Positions 11,361 through 17,785 are shown, counted from the first letter of the stretch. The stretch is DNA of 36,675 bases from an uncultured Gammaproteobacteria bacterium (GCA_964416495.1 CAYQEI010000001.1:1-36675); one strand, 5' to 3'. Made by a program: numbers and translations. The notes: generated by a model not told the origin, from the letters alone.

Positions 11361-13664
11361 ATGACCGCAAAAAAGCTTGTCCCCATCGGCAAAATTAGAA
11401 AGCGCGATGGCCGTTTAGTTAATTTTGATCCAGAACGGATAATTATAGCGATTAACAAGGCATTTGACTCAGTTGATCAAGCCACTAATGGCCATTCTAA
11501 GGCAATTGCCAAGCAAGTTGAGTTAGATCTTCAACGTTTGCAAAAGATTTCTACAGAAAAGAAGTTTATTCCAACGGTAGAGTTAATTCAAGACATAGTT
11601 GAAGAGCAACTTATGAAAAGCGGTTTCTCTAAAGTAGCTCGAGCTTATATACTCTATCGTGAAGAAAGGGCGAAGTTGAGGGAAAAGAGCTTAGCGGTCC
11701 CAGAGCATGTCAAAAAGTTAACTGAAGAGAGTCGTAAGTATTTCAAGAATTCTTTAGCCGAGTTTATTTTCTATCGTACTTATGCTCGTTGGATAGAAGA
11801 GGAGCAAAGACGTGAAACCTGGATAGAAACAGTTGATCGTTACCTAGCTTTTATGAAAAAGAATTTAGGGGATAAGCTTAGTAAAGCTGATCAAGAAGAG
11901 CTCCGGGAGGCAATTTTGAAGCAAGAAGTTATGCCTTCAATGCGTTTAATGCAATTTTCTGGAAAAGCAGCTGAAACTACTAATGTTTGCGCCTATAATT
12001 GCTCCTATATTGCGCCAGAGAAGTTTCAAGATATTGCTGAAATTATGTATGTTTCAATGTGTGGCACTGGTGTCGGTTGGTCAGTTGAGAGTCAAAATGT
12101 AGAGAAATTCCCTCAGATTTTGCGTCAAAAAGGTGGCGAAGCTACTACTTTTGTTATTGCTGATAGCAAGGAAGGTTGGGCTGATGCTTTAGCTTTAGGG
12201 ATGAAAACATGGGCATCGGGTGAAGATATTAAATTTGACTATTCTCAGCTAAGAGCAGCTGGAGCAAGATTAATGACTATGGGTGGAAAAAGCTCTGGAC
12301 CAGATCCATTGCGCAAATTACTTGATTTTACTCGCGCCAAGATGCTTAACCGCCAAGGACGTCGCTTAAGGAGCATTGATTTACACGATATTATTTGTAT
12401 GGTGGGTTATTGCGTAGTTTCAGGTGGAGTTAGACGTAGTGCGATGATTTCACTATCAGATTTAGATGACCAAGAAATTAGAGATGCCAAGAAAGGTCAG
12501 TTCTATATTAGTGAACCACAAAGGAGTCTAGCTAATAATTCAGCTGTTTATATCAAAAAGCCAGAAAACGAAGAGTTTTTGGGGGAATGGCTGGCTCTAA
12601 TTAAGTCCAATTCTGGTGAGCGAGGCATTTTCAATCGTGGATCACTAGCAAAGACCATGCCTCAGCGCCGTTTAGACCTATTGCGCGCTAAAAAGGGGTA
12701 CTTTAGTGCTGATGGTGAGTTTATCATCGGTCAGATGGGGACTAATCCTTGTGGCGAGATTATCCTTCAGTCTAAGCAATTCTGTAATCTATCTGAAGTA
12801 ATAGCCCGCTCTGATGATACTGAAGAAAGTTTGTTAAGGAAGATTAGATTAGCTACCATTCTTGGCACCTATCAATCAACTCTAACCAATTTTCCTTATC
12901 TATCTCGAGGCTGGAAAGTGAATTGTGAAGCGGAAAGATTATTGGGCGTTTCAGTCACTGGTCAATGGGATTCAAAAGTCTCGCGTCAAGAGGAGGTTTT
13001 AGCTAAGCTAAAGGCAGAGGCAATTAAAGTTAATGCTCAATATGCTAAAAAGTTTCAGCTAGAGCCTTCAACCTCAGTTACTTGTGTTAAGCCTTCTGGC
13101 ACTGTTTCTCAATTAACTGATTCAGCTTCTGGGATGCATGCTCGTTATGCTCCTTATTATATCCGTCGCATTCGTATTTCAGCTACTGATTCTTTGTTTA
13201 AGATGCTCAAAGCTCAAGGAGTGCCATATAAGCCAGAAGTAGGTGAGTCCTATGATGATGCTGTTACCTATGTCCTTGAATTCCCGGTCAAAGCCCCTAA
13301 AGGCTCAATTTTTAGCAATGACTTAACTGCACTTGAACAACTTGAGCATTGGAAGAAAGTAAAGCTAAGTTATACCGAGCATAACCCCTCAGTTACCATC
13401 TCAGTAGCTGATGATGAGTGGGTTGAAGTTGCTAACTGGGTTTACTCTAATTGGGAGATTATTGGTGGCCTTTCTTTCTTGCCCCGCACTAACCATGTTT
13501 ACGAACTCGCCCCTTATGAAGAAATCGAGAAAGATAAATATGAAGAAATGTTGAAGAACTTCAAAAATATGGACTTCTCTCAAATTGTAATTTATGAGAA
13601 GCAAGATGAAACTGAAGCTAAAAAGGAATTAGCTTGTGCTGGTGGTGCTTGTGAAGTAAACTAA
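11361..13664 (+). CDS. nrdJ: Class II (adenosylcobalamin-dependent) ribonucleotide reductase with N-terminal ATP-cone
   Basis: ATP-cone at the N-terminus (IRKRDGRLVNFDPERIIIAINKAF), active-site TNPCGEI...FCNLSEV, and a C-terminal Cys pair (CAGGACEV). Confidence 0.85.
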   Translation: MTAKKLVPIGKIRKRDGRLVNFDPERIIIAINKAFDSVDQATNGHSKAIAKQVELDLQRLQKISTEKKFIPTVELIQDIVEEQLMKSGFSKVARAYILYREERAKLREKSLAVPEHVKKLTEESRKYFKNSLAEFIFYRTYARWIEEEQRRETWIETVDRYLAFMKKNLGDKLSKADQEELREAILKQEVMPSMRLMQFSGKAAETTNVCAYNCSYIAPEKFQDIAEIMYVSMCGTGVGWSVESQNVEKFPQILRQKGGEATTFVIADSKEGWADALALGMKTWASGEDIKFDYSQLRAAGARLMTMGGKSSGPDPLRKLLDFTRAKMLNRQGRRLRSIDLHDIICMVGYCVVSGGVRRSAMISLSDLDDQEIRDAKKGQFYISEPQRSLANNSAVYIKKPENEEFLGEWLALIKSNSGERGIFNRGSLAKTMPQRRLDLLRAKKGYFSADGEFIIGQMGTNPCGEIILQSKQFCNLSEVIARSDDTEESLLRKIRLATILGTYQSTLTNFPYLSRGWKVNCEAERLLGVSVTGQWDSKVSRQEEVLAKLKAEAIKVNAQYAKKFQLEPSTSVTCVKPSGTVSQLTDSASGMHARYAPYYIRRIRISATDSLFKMLKAQGVPYKPEVGESYDDAVTYVLEFPVKAPKGSIFSNDLTALEQLEHWKKVKLSYTEHNPSVTISVADDEWVEVANWVYSNWEIIGGLSFLPRTNHVYELAPYEEIEKDKYEEMLKNFKNMDFSQIVIYEKQDETEAKKELACAGGACEVN

Positions 13665-13671
13665 AATAGCT

Positions 13672-14202
13672 ATGTACTACACTGGTGCTGGTGATAAAGG
13701 CAAGACCAGATTGAATAATAGTAAAAGTTTGTCAAAATCTGAGCCTATCTTTGAACTTTTAGGTAGCTTAGATCAGTTAAATTCTCTTTGCGGTTTTAGT
13801 CGTAGTTTAACTGATGTCCCTCAAGAAATAAAAGACTCTCTGCTATTAAGACAAGAGGGTCTTTTTAGTTGTCAGGCTTATTTTGCTCGGAGTAAGTCAG
13901 AGTTAGCGCCAGATCTACTCAGTCGTTTAGAGCGTGACTTAGATGAAATCAGTTTGAAATTAAAGCCACGCCATTCTTTTGTTATTCCTGGTGGTAGTTT
14001 GTTAAGTGCTAGCTTAGATTTAGCTAGAACCCAGGCGCGCAGTTGTGAACGCTTAGCTCAAGCTTACTTGGCTACTAAGACTTGGCTACAAAAAGAGCTA
14101 ATGTTAGCCTACCTTAATCGCTTATCAAGTTACTTCTTTGTTTTGGCTCGCTATGCTAATGACTTAGCTGGAGTAGAGGAAGTCGGTCCCCGTTATAGTT
14201 AA
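13672..14202 (+). CDS. PduO-type ATP:cob(I)alamin adenosyltransferase
   Basis: The N-terminal YTGAGDKGKTRL matches the family YTktGDkGeT motif. Size is 176 aa with a helical-bundle-type sequence. Confidence 0.75.
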   Translation: MYYTGAGDKGKTRLNNSKSLSKSEPIFELLGSLDQLNSLCGFSRSLTDVPQEIKDSLLLRQEGLFSCQAYFARSKSELAPDLLSRLERDLDEISLKLKPRHSFVIPGGSLLSASLDLARTQARSCERLAQAYLATKTWLQKELMLAYLNRLSSYFFVLARYANDLAGVEEVGPRYS

Positions 14203-14211
14203 GATATGGGT

Positions 14212-14240
14212 TTGGCAAAGCTGTGAAATAATAGTATACT
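14212..14240 (+). promoter_or_regulatory. Sigma-70-like promoter
   Basis: TTGGCA (14212-14217), 17-nt spacer, TATACT (14235-14240). Confidence 0.45.
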
Positions 14241-14278
14241 TAAAACACAATGCTAATTAATTCATTAAGATAAAAAAT

Positions 14279-14557
14279 ATGTTAATAGAAGAAAGAGCAA
14301 ATCTAAGTGACAAAACATTAGATCTAAAAAGAGCAATTGACTCTTTACGTGAGGAAGTGGAAGCAGTAAATTACTACAATCAAAGAGCAGACTCAACTTC
14401 AGACCCTGAACTAAAACAAGTGTTGATTCACAATGCTAATGAAGAGAAAGAACACGCTGCTATGTTAATTGAGTGGATTAGAAAGAATGACCCAGTTTTT
14501 GCTAAGGAATTTGAAGACAATTTATTCAAAGAGGTGATAGATACTGATCACGAATAA
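14279..14557 (+). CDS. Encapsulated-ferritin (EncFtn) family ferritin-like protein, lacking a C-terminal targeting peptide
   Basis: REEVEAVNYYNQRADSTSDPELKQVLIHNANEEKEHAAMLIEWIRKNDPVFAKEF is nearly collinear with the EncFtn core as I remember it (EELEAVDWYxQR...HNRDEEKEHAAMxLEWLRRND). The protein ends 17 aa after NDP. Confidence 0.8.
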   Translation: MLIEERANLSDKTLDLKRAIDSLREEVEAVNYYNQRADSTSDPELKQVLIHNANEEKEHAAMLIEWIRKNDPVFAKEFEDNLFKEVIDTDHE

Positions 14558-14567
14558 AACTATTTAA

Positions 14568-15650
14568 TTGGCTATGCCGATAACATTTTTCAATATCATC
14601 TATAACTTGGATCGATATGGTAATAGCGGGCTTGATTACCTCAAAGCCTTACTTTTATTTGTAGTTATCTTTTCAGCTTTAAGGATACTAAGGAATTATG
14701 GTCTAGCCCGGCTTCAGTCCTTAGCTGAAAAGACTAAGATGAAGTTTGACGATATATTAATCACTAGTATTAAGCGGATAAAACTCCTCTCTTATTTTAT
14801 CATTTCGCTCTATCTAAGTTTACAGTTGTTAAGCCTAGCTCGAGCTCTAAACTTGATTGTCAAAGTCTTGTTTTTGGTTATAGTTATCTACGAAAGTATC
14901 CGCATAATTGAGAAAATAGTGGGCTACTTTATTTTCCTCTCTTTACAAAAGAACAGTAAAGTTAGTCAAGATAATGAGCAAATTAGGGCTACAGTGAGAA
15001 CCTTTAATCTATTTGTTGGTATTATTTTGTGGACTTTTGGAGTTTTATTGATTTTATCTAATCTAAACGTCAATGTTACTTCCTTGCTGGCTGGTTTGGG
15101 GATCGGCGGTATTGCGGTCGCTTTAGCCCTGCAAAGTATTTTAGCTGATGTTTTTTCCAGTTTTTCCATTTTGGTTGATAAACCATTTCAAGTTGGTGAC
15201 TTTATCATTATTGGTGATGATAAAGGTATAGTCCAAAAAATTGGTATTAAAACTACCAGAATTAAGTCTCTAGACGGACAAATGCTTATCATTTCTAATC
15301 AAGAGTTAACGACTGCCCGAGTACAGAACTTTGATAAAGTTAAAGAGCGACGCTCTTTACTCAAACTTCGGATTAGCTTTGATACTGCAAGAGAAAAGCT
15401 AGACTTAATCCCAAAATTAACTGAAGAGATTATCTCAAGACATAATTATGCTAAGTTTAACTACTGCCGTTTGCTTGATTTATCAAACTATAGTCTAGAC
15501 TATGAATTATCTTTTTATATTACTGAACCAAACTATGAACAGTTTCTAATCTATTCGGAAAAAATTAAATTAGATGTTTTAGATCGCATTAAACAAGAGG
15601 AAATAAAGCTTGCCTACCCAACTACTAAAGTTGAGTATCAAGCTAAGTAA
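14568..15650 (+). CDS. MscS-family mechanosensitive ion channel
   Basis: GLGIGGIAVALALQSILADVFSSFSILVDKPFQVGDFIIIGDDKGIVQKIGIKTTRIKSLDGQMLIISNQEL is the canonical MscS TM3 / beta-domain. TTG start at 14568, with an alternative ATG at 14574. Confidence 0.85.
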   Translation: MAMPITFFNIIYNLDRYGNSGLDYLKALLLFVVIFSALRILRNYGLARLQSLAEKTKMKFDDILITSIKRIKLLSYFIISLYLSLQLLSLARALNLIVKVLFLVIVIYESIRIIEKIVGYFIFLSLQKNSKVSQDNEQIRATVRTFNLFVGIILWTFGVLLILSNLNVNVTSLLAGLGIGGIAVALALQSILADVFSSFSILVDKPFQVGDFIIIGDDKGIVQKIGIKTTRIKSLDGQMLIISNQELTTARVQNFDKVKERRSLLKLRISFDTAREKLDLIPKLTEEIISRHNYAKFNYCRLLDLSNYSLDYELSFYITEPNYEQFLIYSEKIKLDVLDRIKQEEIKLAYPTTKVEYQAK

Positions 15651-15680
15651 TGAGTACATTAAAAAGGGAGGAGGCAGGAC

Positions 15681-16052
15681 ATGGAAAAAAGAAAAAAAGA
15701 TTTGGCTTTAAGTCAAATCTTGGAAACTTATTCTTCGGTCCTAGCGTCTATTTATGAGCAGGAGCGAGGAAGGGGGCTTGAGCAAGCAGATGTTGTCTTA
15801 GTGGTGATGAGTTTGCGTAATCACTATTACAACATCTTAGAGAACTTATTTTCAAGCAATAAAATTGAAAATGAAGTTTATTCTGAATTTGAGCCTTGGA
15901 TTATTTGCGGGGCTTGTACTTGGCTAAGTTTAAAGCCAAAATTGAAGCAGTTTCCACGTGAGATTAGGCGCAAGCTAAGGAAGTGTCGGAAGTCCTTAGC
16001 AGTAATAGTAGCTGATCAAGTGGAGATTGATGTTTATTGTTTAAACTTTTAA
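15681..16052 (+). CDS. Hypothetical protein, paralogue A of a tandem pair
   Basis: 123-aa ORF preceded by a strong GGGAGGAGG Shine-Dalgarno at 15666-15674. Shares blocks with the next ORF (see findings). Confidence 0.5.
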   Translation: MEKRKKDLALSQILETYSSVLASIYEQERGRGLEQADVVLVVMSLRNHYYNILENLFSSNKIENEVYSEFEPWIICGACTWLSLKPKLKQFPREIRRKLRKCRKSLAVIVADQVEIDVYCLNF

Positions 16053-16061
16053 TTTATTGAG

Positions 16062-16418
16062 ATGAAAATAAATTTTGGTTTATACCCAGAAAGCCAGTTA
16101 ATGTTGGAGAATAATATTACTGGCATCTACCATTTCAAACAAAGAATGTTTGAGTTAGGTATAGAAAAGGATAATATAGTAATCTTGCTGGTAGAAGCAA
16201 AGAGTAAAGGGTCTGATAATTTAATCAGACTGATTCTACCCGGGCTTGATTGCAAAAGACTACGTGAACAAGACCCTAATGCCGTAATTACTGGTTTTGT
16301 TCGTCAGGGATATTTGCCCCGGAGAATACGCAATTATCCCCTGAAAACATTAGTATCCAAAAATAGGATCCCTGTCTTGATTCTTCATGACGGGAGATTA
16401 GCGCTCACATTGATATAA
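16062..16418 (+). CDS. Hypothetical protein, paralogue B of a tandem pair
   Basis: 118-aa ORF starting 9 nt after the previous stop. No family recognised. Confidence 0.5.
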   Translation: MKINFGLYPESQLMLENNITGIYHFKQRMFELGIEKDNIVILLVEAKSKGSDNLIRLILPGLDCKRLREQDPNAVITGFVRQGYLPRRIRNYPLKTLVSKNRIPVLILHDGRLALTLI

Positions 16419-16420
16419 AA

Positions 16421-16448
16421 AATGCCGGTTACTATTGTAATCGGCATT
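16421..16448. terminator. Bidirectional terminator hairpin between convergent genes
   Basis: AATGCCG (16421-16427) pairs with CGGCATT (16442-16448). It is flanked by an A run on the left and a T-rich stretch on the right. Confidence 0.55.
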
Positions 16449-16452
16449 ACTT

Positions 16453-16767
16453 TTAGCAAGAGAAACCAACTTTTTCGTAGTTTGAGCGGAATTCCGCTCT
16501 TTTTTTGTTGATTTTTTCTTGCAATTTTTTAACTTCCTGTATAATCCTAGGAACTGGCAAGTCAGAGTTGAAGATATTCTCTAGCTCTTGGTTTTTCTCT
16601 ACCAAGTAGCTATTATAGGCCTCAACTACTTCTGCTCTTTTTCCAAGAGTTAAAATTTCAGGATCAACAAACTGTGGCTTGTTCTCATTACTGAGATCCA
16701 GTTTATTGTTTAAATTGATAATTTTTTTCATTGTCAAAATTTTAATGTTCAAGATGGAGATTGTCAT
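16453..16767 (-). CDS. Hypothetical protein (the only minus-strand gene in the window)
   Basis: 104-aa ORF. An AAGGA lies 6 nt upstream of the ATG at 16767. An alternative start at 16731 would give MKKIINL. Confidence 0.45.
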   Translation of the reverse strand: MTISILNIKILTMKKIINLNNKLDLSNENKPQFVDPEILTLGKRAEVVEAYNSYLVEKNQELENIFNSDLPVPRIIQEVKKLQEKINKKRAEFRSNYEKVGFSC

Positions 16768-16849
16768 AAAATATCCTTATTGTCAAGGGTATTTTTAGCT
16801 TATTTCTTTTTATGCTATAATTACCTTATCTTATTAATTCATTTTAATT

Positions 16850-17785
16850 ATGCCATTAGTCTTTAATATTATTTTTGTTTTAGTTTTGTTTGCCTTGTTA
16901 GGGAAGGTAGCTGACTTTGCTGTAAACAATATCCGCTATATTGCCCAGGCACTTAAACTAAAGATGTTTGCTTTAGGGGTGATCTTAGGTTTGGTCACAA
17001 CTTTACCCGAGTTCTCAGTTGGTATTAATGCTGCAATTGAAGGTGCTGGTGAGTTATCAGTTGGTAATATCATGGGGGGAACAGTTGTCCTTTTGGGTTT
17101 GATATTAGGGATAACTTTAATGGTAAATAAAAAGGTTGATACTAAAGAGAATTTTCGAATTCTATTACCCAGTGCGATGGTGATGTTATTTCCTTTCTTA
17201 CTTGGAATTGATGGGCGTTTATCAGCTCTAGATGGCGTTATTTTGGTTTCATTGTATGCTGGTCTTTTAATTTACATCTATCGTCATAACCGCGATCGTA
17301 GTTTAGACAGTAAAATTGCCATTATTGATAAAGGTAAGATTGGTAAAGCTGTCATCTATTCTCTCTTGGGAGTGATCGGGGTGATGCTTATCTCTCATTA
17401 TATAGTGGAGATAACTTTAGATTTTCTCCAGCACTATAATATTAACAAGCTCCTAATTGGGGTAATATTTTTCTCAATTGGAACTAATTTGCCTGAGATT
17501 AGTATTTCCATTATGGCTTGGCGAAAAAAGTCAGCTGACCTTTCCCTTAGCCACTTGTTGAGTTCAGCTTTTACCCATACTTTTGTTTTGGGGACTTTGT
17601 CAATGCTTCACCCAATTACCTTTACCATTGACTTAACTTACTACATTTTAGTCTTCTTTGTCACCTTAATTGTTATTCTGTTTTTAATCTTTGCTCGCAG
17701 TGATAAAAAGTTAGTTAGAACAGAGGGGATAATATTATTTCTAGTCTATCTGGCCTTCTTAATAGTTAACCTATTTATCCTTTAG
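16850..17785 (+). CDS. CaCA-family sodium/calcium exchanger membrane protein (YrbG-like)
   Basis: Two alpha-repeat motifs (TTLPEFSVGINA..GNIMGG and GTNLPEISISIMA) in a polytopic membrane protein of about 10 TM. TGcTATAAT at 16813-16821. Confidence 0.75.
   Translation: MPLVFNIIFVLVLFALLGKVADFAVNNIRYIAQALKLKMFALGVILGLVTTLPEFSVGINAAIEGAGELSVGNIMGGTVVLLGLILGITLMVNKKVDTKENFRILLPSAMVMLFPFLLGIDGRLSALDGVILVSLYAGLLIYIYRHNRDRSLDSKIAIIDKGKIGKAVIYSLLGVIGVMLISHYIVEITLDFLQHYNINKLLIGVIFFSIGTNLPEISISIMAWRKKSADLSLSHLLSSAFTHTFVLGTLSMLHPITFTIDLTYYILVFFVTLIVILFLIFARSDKKLVRTEGIILFLVYLAFLIVNLFIL

What the first reader, a model, noticed from the sequence alone, without database searches (positions are those of the whole stretch)
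14212..15650. Orphan encapsulated-ferritin (EncFtn) homologue with no shell gene and no targeting peptide, placed next to an MscS channel
The 92-aa protein retains the EncFtn ferroxidase-centre residues (EEVEAVNYY and EEKEHAAM blocks). It ends shortly after the conserved WIRKNDP...LF region, so it lacks the Gly/Ser-rich C-terminal localisation sequence that directs EncFtn into encapsulin nanocompartments. Neither neighbour is an HK97-fold shell protein. Upstream is the adenosyltransferase, and 10 nt downstream is an MscS-family channel that probably shares the promoter at 14212-14240. EncFtn on its own oxidises iron but is not known to store it. A free-standing copy raises the question of what, if anything, acts as its container or partner here.
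Basis: partly seen in the sequence, partly recalled or inferred. Interest (0 to 1): 0.6.

Follow-up and report, generated by a model that had tools for sequence, protein, structure and literature searches.

The report
Shell-less short encapsulated-ferritin homologue (s-FLP)
A 92-residue iron-oxidising mini-ferritin of the type normally packed inside encapsulin protein shells sits in an ultra-small bacterium that has no shell gene; it belongs to an already named but never biochemically tested class of short, tag-less forms that almost never co-occur with a shell.

Summary
ORF 14279-14557 encodes a full-length EncFtn-like domain (Pfam PF22277, E 3.9e-35). All three EncFtn metal sites are conserved, and the protein stops 9 residues after the conserved LF, so it has no targeting peptide. 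The 686-kb, 92%-complete Patescibacteria genome gave no encapsulin match of any family tested. No family-1 encapsulin scored above cut-off in 401 genomes of the phylum.

It is not a new kind. A 2024 review calls such proteins "s-FLP", typified by the unpublished decameric structure 3K6C (NE0167). 3K6C is the best sequence and fold match here (55-58% identity, TM 0.9).

New here:
- Of 50 genomes with close relatives, 46 have no encapsulin match. The 4 Methanolobus matches lie in phage-head-like gene modules.
- The short tail corresponds to the end of the folded core that tag-bearing members also have. It is not a cryptic tag.
- The genome also gave no match to ferritin/Dps, Fur or SufBD.
- MscS follows the gene in only 3 of 5 genus genomes and in no other lineage, so a partnership is unlikely.

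Most likely it is a free ring-shaped ferroxidase that detoxifies Fe2+/O2/H2O2 without storing iron. This scan has noted similar orphans in at least seven other genomes.

The parts
14279..14557 (+). s-FLP gene: a 92-aa short EncFtn-like ferritin. Ferroxidase centre E26, E56, H59, Y33; entry site E25/E28; outer site H51/E55/E58; tail KEVIDTDHE follows the conserved LF.
   Evidence: PF22277 E 3.9e-35. Best PDB sequence match 3K6C, E 6.7e-27. AF2 model pLDDT 96 with TM 0.90 to 3K6C and 5DA5. Residue mapping uses the alignment and the site definitions in PMC5012862. Conservation is from alignment A1.
14212..14240 (+). Promoter-like site TTGGCA-17-TATACT in the 76-nt gap between the adenosyltransferase gene and the s-FLP gene.
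   Evidence: Consensus scan, 10 of 12 matches. Not statistically enriched and not aligned in relatives. G024 has only an 18-nt gap at this position, so read-through from nrdJ-ATR is also possible.
14574..15650 (+). MscS-family mechanosensitive channel (358 aa from ATG 14574; an alternative TTG start lies at 14568). Probably co-transcribed with the s-FLP gene. Neighbour only; not shown to be a partner.
   Evidence: PF00924 3.3e-19 and PF21088 7.5e-09. Follows s-FLP in G000, G027 and G534 but not in G024 or G528.
13672..14202 (+). PduO-type cob(I)alamin adenosyltransferase. It is the upstream neighbour in every genus genome that carries the s-FLP.
   Evidence: PF01923 2.6e-38 and TIGR00636. Synteny shown.
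11361..13664 (+). NrdJ-like B12-dependent ribonucleotide reductase, the first gene of the conserved NrdJ-ATR block that precedes the variable slot holding the s-FLP.
Evidence: ORF. 78-83% identical copies lie upstream of ATR in 10 genus genomes.

Best explanation
The gene encodes a member of the short, tag-less EncFtn class (s-FLP, type NE0167 / PDB 3K6C). Each chain is a two-helix hairpin. Two chains pair to build a di-iron ferroxidase centre, and five such pairs are expected to form an open decameric ring. In this cell the ring works free in the cytoplasm and not inside any shell. It takes up Fe2+ at the inner E25/E28 site, oxidises it with O2 or H2O2 at the E26/E56/H59 centre, and releases Fe3+ at the outer H51/E55/E58 site. 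Its role would then be removal of Fenton-active Fe2+ and of oxidant, not iron storage. That fits a minimal genome in which ferritin/Dps, Fur and SufBD were not found. The MscS gene downstream shares a transcript at most. It is a lineage-specific neighbour in a variable gene slot, not a container or partner. Shown here: family, fold, metal ligands, missing tag, no shell gene detected, and the distribution of neighbours. Inferred: the decamer, the ferroxidase activity, the physiological role, and the fate of Fe3+.
For: Family, fold and ligands:
- PF22277 matched full-length, E 3.9e-35.
- Best sequence match is 3K6C, E 6.7e-27, deposited with 10 chains.
- AF2 model pLDDT 96; TM 0.90 and rmsd 1-1.5 A to 3K6C, 5DA5 and 5N5F.
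- All nine metal-site residues defined for R. rubrum EncFtn are present. They are invariant or at least 90% conserved in 42 relatives.

No targeting peptide:
- TIGR04535 aligns to positions 3-84 of 114 and scores below its cut-off.
- The tail is 9 residues. Tag-bearing relatives carry LF-xxGxIxxxE, then a linker, then the tag. Short forms stop right after that shared segment.

No shell:
- PF04454, PF05065, PF19307 and PF08967 gave no match in the genome.
- PF04454 scored above cut-off in 0 of 401 phylum genomes and in 0 of 5 genomes holding close relatives.
- 46 of 50 genomes with close relatives have no match. The 4 Methanolobus matches sit beside head-decoration and head-tail-adaptor genes.

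Role:
- EncFtn without a shell oxidises iron but does not accumulate it (PMC5012862).
- PF00210, FUR and SUFBD each matched in 13-14 of 14 control genomes but not in this genome. The s-FLP is the only rubrerythrin/ferritin-like hit.
- Recurrent neighbours in other lineages relate to metal or oxidant handling: Fur, Nitro_FeMo-Co, NUBPL/Fer4 ATPase, ZIP, AhpC, desulfoferrodoxin.
- In genus genomes without the s-FLP, the same slot holds a hemerythrin/DUF438 protein, Fur plus a putative periplasmic metal-binding protein (assigned by eye), or a cytochrome-b5-like protein.
Against: No experiment exists for any s-FLP. The 3K6C structure is apo and unpublished, so the decamer and the activity are inferred by homology. 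A free ferroxidase would produce insoluble Fe3+, and nothing found here explains where it goes. The genome is 92% complete in 41 contigs. The control searches for PF19307 and PF08967 matched in no control genome, so those two negatives are uncalibrated. A shell of unknown fold cannot be excluded. An organism in which no SufBD or FeoB-type uptake was found may handle so little iron that a different substrate (O2, H2O2 or another metal) could be the real one.
Confidence: 0.65

Rival explanations
1. It is still a cargo. The short tail (..LFKEVIDTDHE) would be a non-canonical targeting sequence for a shell that is either in the unassembled 8% of the genome or of a fold that the HK97 models cannot detect.
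For: The review PMC11202242 leaves open that the s-FLP C-terminus LFTD(E/N)KPIAHE is an uncharacterised targeting peptide. The tail is conserved within subclades, for example I-D/N-T-D/N-H in the Patescibacteria copies. The genome is incomplete.
Against: No family-1 shell scored above cut-off in 401 phylum genomes, and none was found in 46 of 50 genomes with close relatives. The other 4 matches look proviral. The tail aligns with the post-LF segment that tag-bearing members have in addition to their tag. There is no conserved neighbour: 118 Pfam families occur among 150 flanking genes.
Confidence: 0.08
2. s-FLP and MscS form a functional pair. For example, the ring could dock on the channel's cytoplasmic vestibule, so that iron oxidation is coupled to ion release or export.
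For: The gap is 16 nt (2-28 nt in relatives) and there is no convincing terminator. The pair recurs in G000, G027 and G534.
Against: MscS is absent after the s-FLP in G024 and G528 of the same genus. It is also absent from the +/-3 gene neighbourhoods of all other lineages. The MscS shows only ordinary MscS domains and no metal-binding domain. From general knowledge, a heptameric channel and a decameric ring have mismatched symmetry.
Confidence: 0.07
3. It serves the B12-dependent ribonucleotide reductase module. For example, it could keep Fe2+/H2O2 away from the cobalamin cofactor or from the thiyl-radical enzyme, as the third gene of the nrdJ operon.
For: In all 5 genus genomes where its context is visible, the s-FLP lies directly after NrdJ-ATR. 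In G024 the gap is only 18 nt, which leaves no room for a promoter of its own.
Against: Five other genus genomes have NrdJ-ATR without the s-FLP; one of these loci ends at the contig edge. Other Patescibacteria and all other lineages have unrelated neighbours such as YidC, VanW and patatin. The synteny is therefore explained by common descent within one genus.
Confidence: 0.1
4. It is a di-metal protein with a different chemistry, such as a rubrerythrin-like peroxidase, an O2 scavenger or sensor, or a Mn/Zn binder, and iron oxidation is not its physiological job.
For: Weak matches to Rubrerythrin and to the MbfA erythrin domain. The genome gave no match for SufBD, Fur or ferritin, which suggests little iron traffic. 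Relatives have AhpC and desulfoferrodoxin as neighbours.
Against: All EncFtn iron ligands and both accessory sites are strictly kept. Every characterised member of the family is a ferroxidase (PMC5012862, PMC11202242).
Confidence: 0.1

Closest known systems
s-FLP class of encapsulated-ferritin-like proteins; type NE0167 of Nitrosomonas europaea, PDB 3K6C (Eren et al. 2024, PMC11202242)
   Same: Length (92 against 95 aa). 55-58% identity. Same fold (TM 0.90). Same metal ligands. Ends 8-9 residues after the conserved LF, with an I..HE-type ending (LFKEVIDTDHE against LFTDKPIAHE). No linker and no targeting peptide.
   Different: It belongs to a separate all-short subclade shared by Patescibacteria, Woesearchaeota/Nanoarchaeota and Methanosarcinales. 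The tail motif is I-D-T-D-H-E rather than KPIAHE. Its host has a minimal genome in which no ferritin, Fur or SufBD was found.
Encapsulated ferritin with targeting peptide (FLP-TP): R. rubrum Rru_A0973 (5DA5), H. ochraceum (5N5F); NCBIfam TIGR04535
   Same: 45-50% identity. Same hairpin fold (rmsd about 1 A). Same ferroxidase centre, entry site and outer site.
   Different: The window protein lacks the 25-50-residue disordered linker and the ..SLGIGSLK / ..LTVGSL tag. It scores below the TIGR04535 cut-off and has no shell gene in its genome. FLP-TPs need the shell to store iron.
Non-targeted Flp proteins near Flp or Flp-fusion encapsulin operons in archaea (Giessen & Silver 2017; preprint 10.1101/085266)
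   Same: EncFtn-type proteins without a targeting peptide.
   Different: Those were described close to encapsulin operons. Here, and in 46 of 50 genomes with close relatives, no encapsulin match was found at all.
Erythrin domain of the iron exporter MbfA, and rubrerythrin-type two-helix di-iron modules
   Same: A half-ferritin ExxH hairpin that dimerises to bind two metals. Weak profile matches (NF045676 E 7e-4; PF02915 E 2.7e-5).
   Different: These matches are far weaker than the EncFtn-like match. There is no fused VIT1 membrane domain. The adjacent membrane protein is an MscS channel, which is unrelated to VIT1.

Membership tests
EncFtn-like (Pfam PF22277) | Profile match above the gathering score over the whole domain | tested here: met
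   119.9 bits against a cut-off of 27; profile positions 2-85 of 85
EncFtn-like (Pfam PF22277) | Two long antiparallel helices plus a short third helix | tested here: met
   AF2 model has helices H11-39, H43-70 and H72-81 with pLDDT 96. TM 0.90 to 3K6C, 5DA5 and 5N5F.
EncFtn-like (Pfam PF22277) | Ferroxidase-centre ligands Glu32, Glu62, His65 and Tyr39 (R. rubrum numbering) | tested here: met
   E26, E56, H59 and Y33 by the alignment (offset 6). Site definitions. Conserved in alignment A1.
EncFtn-like (Pfam PF22277) | Entry site Glu31/Glu34 and outer site His57/Glu61/Glu64 | tested here: met
   E25/E28 and H51/E55/E58 are present, and each is invariant or at least 90% conserved in A1
EncFtn-like (Pfam PF22277) | Metal-dependent annular decamer | not testable with these tools
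   Only a single-chain prediction is available. The closest homologue, 3K6C, is deposited with 10 chains and is described as a decamer.
EncFtn-like (Pfam PF22277) | Ferroxidase activity without iron accumulation | not testable with these tools
   Known for R. rubrum EncFtn. No s-FLP has been assayed.
Encapsulin cargo ferritin (FLP-TP, TIGR04535) | C-terminal disordered linker plus targeting peptide (L/F-x-V/I-G-S-L type) | tested here: not met
   The protein ends 9 residues after LF. TIGR04535 aligns only to positions 3-84 of 114 and scores 109.9, below 125. No TP motif.
Encapsulin cargo ferritin (FLP-TP, TIGR04535) | Family-1 encapsulin shell gene adjacent or elsewhere in the genome | tested here: not met
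   PF04454 gave no match in the 92%-complete genome. It scored above cut-off in 0 of 401 genomes of the phylum.
s-FLP class (PMC11202242) | About 95 aa, with no long disordered C-terminus and no apparent targeting peptide | tested here: met
   92 aa with a 9-residue tail
s-FLP class (PMC11202242) | Conserved ending of the LFTD(E/N)KPIAHE type | tested here: inconclusive
   LFKEVIDTDHE shares LF, the Ile and the terminal H-E. The spacing and the other residues differ, and the archaeal sister sequences end ..DIASLEE without a His.
s-FLP class (PMC11202242) | Closer to 3K6C than to tag-bearing EncFtn | tested here: met
   96.7 bits to 3K6C against 78.5 bits (5DA5) and 77.8 bits (5N5F). The tree base is unresolved, and short and tagged forms interleave.
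MscS family (neighbour gene) | MS_channel transmembrane helices 2/3 plus the beta-domain | tested here: met
   PF21088 7.5e-09 and PF00924 3.3e-19

The most novel reading that the evidence does not exclude
Short EncFtn proteins as a whole would be a shell-independent iron/oxidant-defence system rather than stray cargo. In ultra-small symbionts (Patescibacteria and DPANN archaea) they would be the only ferritin-superfamily protein. They would have moved between archaea and bacteria: the Patescibacteria copies nest among Woesearchaeota and Methanosarcinales sequences at 65-72% identity. If so, the open EncFtn ring has a physiological function of its own, and the encapsulated, tagged forms are one specialisation of it.
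Probability: 0.45. Interest if true: 0.5.

Novelty: new member of a known kind. Interest (0 to 1): 0.35.

Why it matters
The field treats EncFtn as having an absolute need for an encapsulin shell (PMC5012862). The 2024 review still asks whether short forms are encapsulated. The co-occurrence counts here are 0 of 401 phylum genomes and 46 of 50 carrier genomes with no encapsulin match, with the 4 remaining matches lying in phage-head-like modules. These counts argue that the short forms work alone. That makes the question of what an open ferroxidase ring does without a container directly testable, using a 92-residue protein. For minimal-genome symbionts it points to a one-gene answer to iron and oxygen toxicity. 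As a single gene in this window it is an ordinary member of a widespread class.

Tried and rejected
- **Family-2 and family-4 encapsulin models.** PF19307 and PF08967 gave no hit, but their controls matched in no control genome either, so these negatives are weak.
- **FeoB.** The FeoB_N hits (at most 42.7 bits, two of them in one 469-aa frame) were read as generic GTPases, not FeoB. This was not examined further.
- **Family tree.** A tree of 110 core sequences (82 columns) did not resolve the base of the family. It supports only the local all-short clade. It shows that short and tagged forms interleave, with at least 6 changes forced. Some rows scored as short are truncated or frameshifted ORFs.
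- **Promoter.** The conservation test failed: the intergenic regions of 5 genus genomes do not align except for the AT-rich stretch just before the ATG.
- **Recent transfer.** Composition gave no sign of recent transfer. GC3 is 0.27 against a background of 0.30 +/- 0.03.
- **Methanolobus PF04454 matches.** These were first counted as encapsulins and then rejected. All five share a module with head-decoration-like and head-tail-adaptor-like genes.
- **Correction to my own note.** I had written that all close Patescibacteria relatives share NrdJ-ATR. L035 and L038 have other neighbours, namely YidC, VanW and patatin.

Full report
**What is there**

ORF 14279..14557 (+) encodes 92 residues. It matches Pfam PF22277 (EncFtn-like) over the whole profile (positions 2-85 of 85; 119.9 bits; E 3.9e-35). 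The NCBIfam model for encapsulin-associated ferritin cargo (TIGR04535, 114 positions) aligns only to positions 3-84 and scores 109.9, below its cut-off of 125. The part of that model holding the linker and targeting peptide therefore has no counterpart here.

The next gene is an MscS-family channel (PF21088 + PF00924). Relatives begin MLNILNNIL.., which aligns with the window's MPITFFNII... The start is therefore more likely ATG 14574 than TTG 14568, and the gap is 16 nt.

Upstream lie a PduO-type adenosyltransferase (13672..14202; PF01923) and a 767-aa NrdJ-like reductase. A TTGGCA-17-TATACT site lies at 14212-14240. Such sites are not enriched over shuffles, and the site is not positionally conserved in relatives.

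**Fold and ligands**

The best solved relative by sequence is 3K6C, the 95-aa protein NE0167 of Nitrosomonas europaea, deposited with ten chains (E 6.7e-27). It scores ahead of R. rubrum EncFtn 5DA5 (3.4e-21) and H. ochraceum 5N5F (5.6e-21). An AlphaFold2 model built on 42 relatives has pLDDT 96 and three helices. It superposes on 3K6C, 5DA5 and 5N5F with TM about 0.90 and rmsd 0.8-1.5 A.

He et al. 2016 (PMC5012862) define three metal sites. Using their definitions and the alignment (offset 6), all three are present:

| Site | R. rubrum residues | Window residues |
|---|---|---|
| Ferroxidase centre | Glu32, Glu62, His65, Tyr39 | E26, E56, H59, Y33 |
| Entry site | Glu31, Glu34 | E25, E28 |
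| Outer-surface site | His57, Glu61, Glu64 | H51, E55, E58 |

In the 42-sequence alignment these residues are invariant or at least 90% conserved.

**No shell**

The genome holding the window is 686 kb in 41 contigs and 92% complete. Relatives from the same genus are deposited as Patescibacteria group bacteria (L037 = G024 and L034 = G528).

- PF04454 (family-1 encapsulin), PF05065 (phage capsid / family 3), PF19307 (SrpI-like / family 2) and PF08967 (family 4) all gave no match. The family assignments follow PMC8346489. The PF19307 and PF08967 controls matched in no control genome, so those two negatives are uncalibrated.
- Across 401 genomes of the phylum, no PF04454 match reached the cut-off, while PF22277 matched in 23.
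- Five genomes holding close or strong relatives also had none.

**This is a known class**

Eren et al. 2024 (PMC11202242) divide encapsulated ferritin-like proteins into four groups: tag-bearing, shell-fused, IMEF and "s-FLP". They define s-FLPs as shorter proteins without a long disordered C-terminus or an apparent targeting peptide, typified by 3K6C. They note that s-FLPs were first regarded as non-encapsulated. They give the conserved ending as LFTD(E/N)KPIAHE and say it is unclear whether this is an undefined binding sequence.

Giessen and Silver had mentioned non-targeted Flp proteins near encapsulin operons in archaea. I found no biochemical study of an s-FLP.

The window protein ends LFKEVIDTDHE and is closest to 3K6C, so I place it in this class.

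**How common, and is the tail a tag?**

- The word-indexed search returned 486 relatives. The best 120 are almost all 85-105 aa and come from Patescibacteria, Methanolobus/Methanosalsum and Woesearchaeota.
- The exhaustive search of 50%-identity representatives found 809 clusters (316 at E <= 1e-10).
- Of the best 150 clusters, 65 end within 15 residues of the LF. Another 73 have tails of 25 residues or more, many ending in the canonical ..SLGIGSLK or ..LTVGSL.
- In 21 clean tag-bearing sequences, the LF is followed by x-x-G-x-I-x-x-x-E (Ile at +5 in 16; Glu at +9 in 15), then a Gly/Ala/Glu-rich linker, then the tag. The short proteins stop right after that shared segment.

The s-FLP tail is therefore most simply the end of the folded core, and not a cryptic tag.

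A tree of 110 cores is unresolved at its base. It places the window protein in an all-short clade of 18 rows. The Patescibacteria subclade (support 100/90) nests among Woesearchaeota and Methanosarcinales sequences. Elsewhere short and tagged forms interleave.

**Do carriers of close relatives have shells?**

I fetched 80 loci from named genomes and searched 50 of those genomes for PF04454. Forty-six had no match. These include the cultured Hydrogenovibrio sp. SC-1 and Plasticicumulans acidivorans.

The four genomes with matches are Methanolobus genomes. Their five matching genes lie on other contigs. They sit in a shared module with a head-decoration-like gene (phrog_766) and a head-tail-adaptor gene (phrog_793). 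They therefore look like provirus capsid genes.

**Neighbours**

- **No constant partner.** Among 150 genes directly flanking the relatives, 118 Pfam families occur. The only recurrent ones are Nitro_FeMo-Co (7), adenosyltransferase (4), MFS (3), and ZIP, AhpC and desulfoferrodoxin (2 each).
- **One conserved cluster elsewhere.** A subclade ending ..MFEEHD (Planctomycetes, Omnitrophota and some archaea) sits in a conserved cluster. It holds Nitro_FeMo-Co proteins, DUF5320, a zinc-ribbon protein, a methyltransferase and a NUBPL-type ATPase with a 4Fe-4S domain, with Fur nearby in three loci.
- **Within the window's genus.** The NrdJ-ATR block occurs in 11 of 61 genomes. The s-FLP follows it in G000, G027, G024, G534 and G528. 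MscS follows the s-FLP only in G000, G027 and G534.
- **A variable slot.** In genus genomes with NrdJ-ATR but no s-FLP, the same position holds a DUF438-hemerythrin protein, a cytochrome-b5-like protein, Fur plus a putative periplasmic metal-binding protein, or DUF488. The cytochrome-b5-like and metal-binding assignments were made by eye.
- **Other Patescibacteria.** Their neighbours are unrelated: YidC, VanW and patatin.

The MscS adjacency is thus a feature of part of one genus, inside a variable slot. It is not a conserved partnership. In G024 the s-FLP starts 18 nt after ATR, so there it must be read from the nrdJ transcript.

**Cell context**

- PF00210 (ferritin/Dps/Bfr), FUR and SUFBD each matched in 13-14 of 14 control genomes but gave nothing in this genome.
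- The only rubrerythrin-type hit is the s-FLP itself.
- FeoB_N hits are weak and look like generic GTPases.
- A peroxiredoxin is present.
- The s-FLP's GC3 of 0.27 is like that of its neighbours.

**Reading**

R. rubrum EncFtn without its shell oxidises Fe2+ but does not accumulate iron. The likeliest function here is therefore a free decameric ferroxidase. It would remove Fenton-active Fe2+ and consume O2/H2O2 in a cell that seems to use and store very little iron.

The decamer, the activity and the fate of the Fe3+ are inferred, not shown. The rivals are each judged unlikely, at 0.07-0.10:
- an undetected or unknown shell;
- a functional pair with MscS;
- a role tied to the B12 reductase module;
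- a non-iron chemistry.

**Verdict**

However, the protein is a new member of a known, widespread and uncharacterised class.

Noticed in passing
L123, L124, L125, L128 (genus genomes G516, G511, G523, G011), directly downstream of NrdJ-ATR: The position that holds the s-FLP in the window is a variable slot. Other genus members carry there a DUF438+hemerythrin protein, a 79-aa cytochrome-b5-like protein, a Fur-family regulator plus a putative periplasmic metal-binding protein, or DUF488. The cytochrome-b5-like and metal-binding assignments were made by eye. The slot looks like a hotspot for metal- and oxygen-related accessory genes.
   Followed up: partly
L100-L112 (Planctomycetes, Omnitrophota, some archaea): An s-FLP subclade ending ..MFEEHD sits in a conserved cluster. 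It holds one or two Nitro_FeMo-Co (NifX/NifB-like) proteins, DUF5320, a small zinc-ribbon protein, a SAM methyltransferase and NUBPL/ParA ATPases with a 4Fe-4S domain. Fur is nearby in three loci. The cluster's function is unknown, and it looks related to iron or Fe-S handling.
   Followed up: partly
L113-L117 (Methanolobus genomes G465, G469, G480, G482): The PF04454 (Linocin_M18) matches of about 54 bits are 288-aa capsid-like genes. They are flanked by head-decoration-like and head-tail-adaptor genes, so they are probable provirus capsids that a Pfam-only search would count as encapsulins.
   Followed up: yes
whole genome G000: No match to ferritin/Dps (PF00210), Fur (PF01475) or SufBD (PF01458) in a 92%-complete genome, although each matched in 13-14 of 14 control genomes. 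One AhpC-type peroxiredoxin lies at C5:6962-7372. Other Fe-S assembly systems were not tested.
   Followed up: partly
L013-L031 (17 of 401 Patescibacteria genomes): A second family of roughly 91-95-aa proteins with an ..EEK(T/E)H(V/I)GEFQ.. motif matches PF22277 only weakly (25-36 bits). It is probably a different small ferritin-like family that is common in the phylum.
   Followed up: no
L012 (G366:C3:4236-4490): A full-length EncFtn-like domain (71.7 bits) lies inside a 294-aa open frame in a Patescibacteria genome. This could be a fusion or a mis-called start.
   Followed up: no
L033, L035, L036, L038, L071, L084: Records titled 'uncultured Gammaproteobacteria bacterium' are 0.6-1.0-Mb genomes. 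L033 and L036 are identical to genus members G027 and G534 of this Patescibacteria genus, so the deposited taxon labels look wrong.
   Followed up: partly
window 14568-17785 compared with L034, L037 and L002: In G024 and G528 a pilin-like gene and a malic-enzyme gene lie two to three genes after the s-FLP. In the window they are displaced by MscS, two paralogous ~120-aa ORFs (15681-16418), a reverse-strand 104-aa ORF and a Na/Ca-exchanger gene (16850-17785). The G027 locus has MscS followed by the exchanger.
   Followed up: partly
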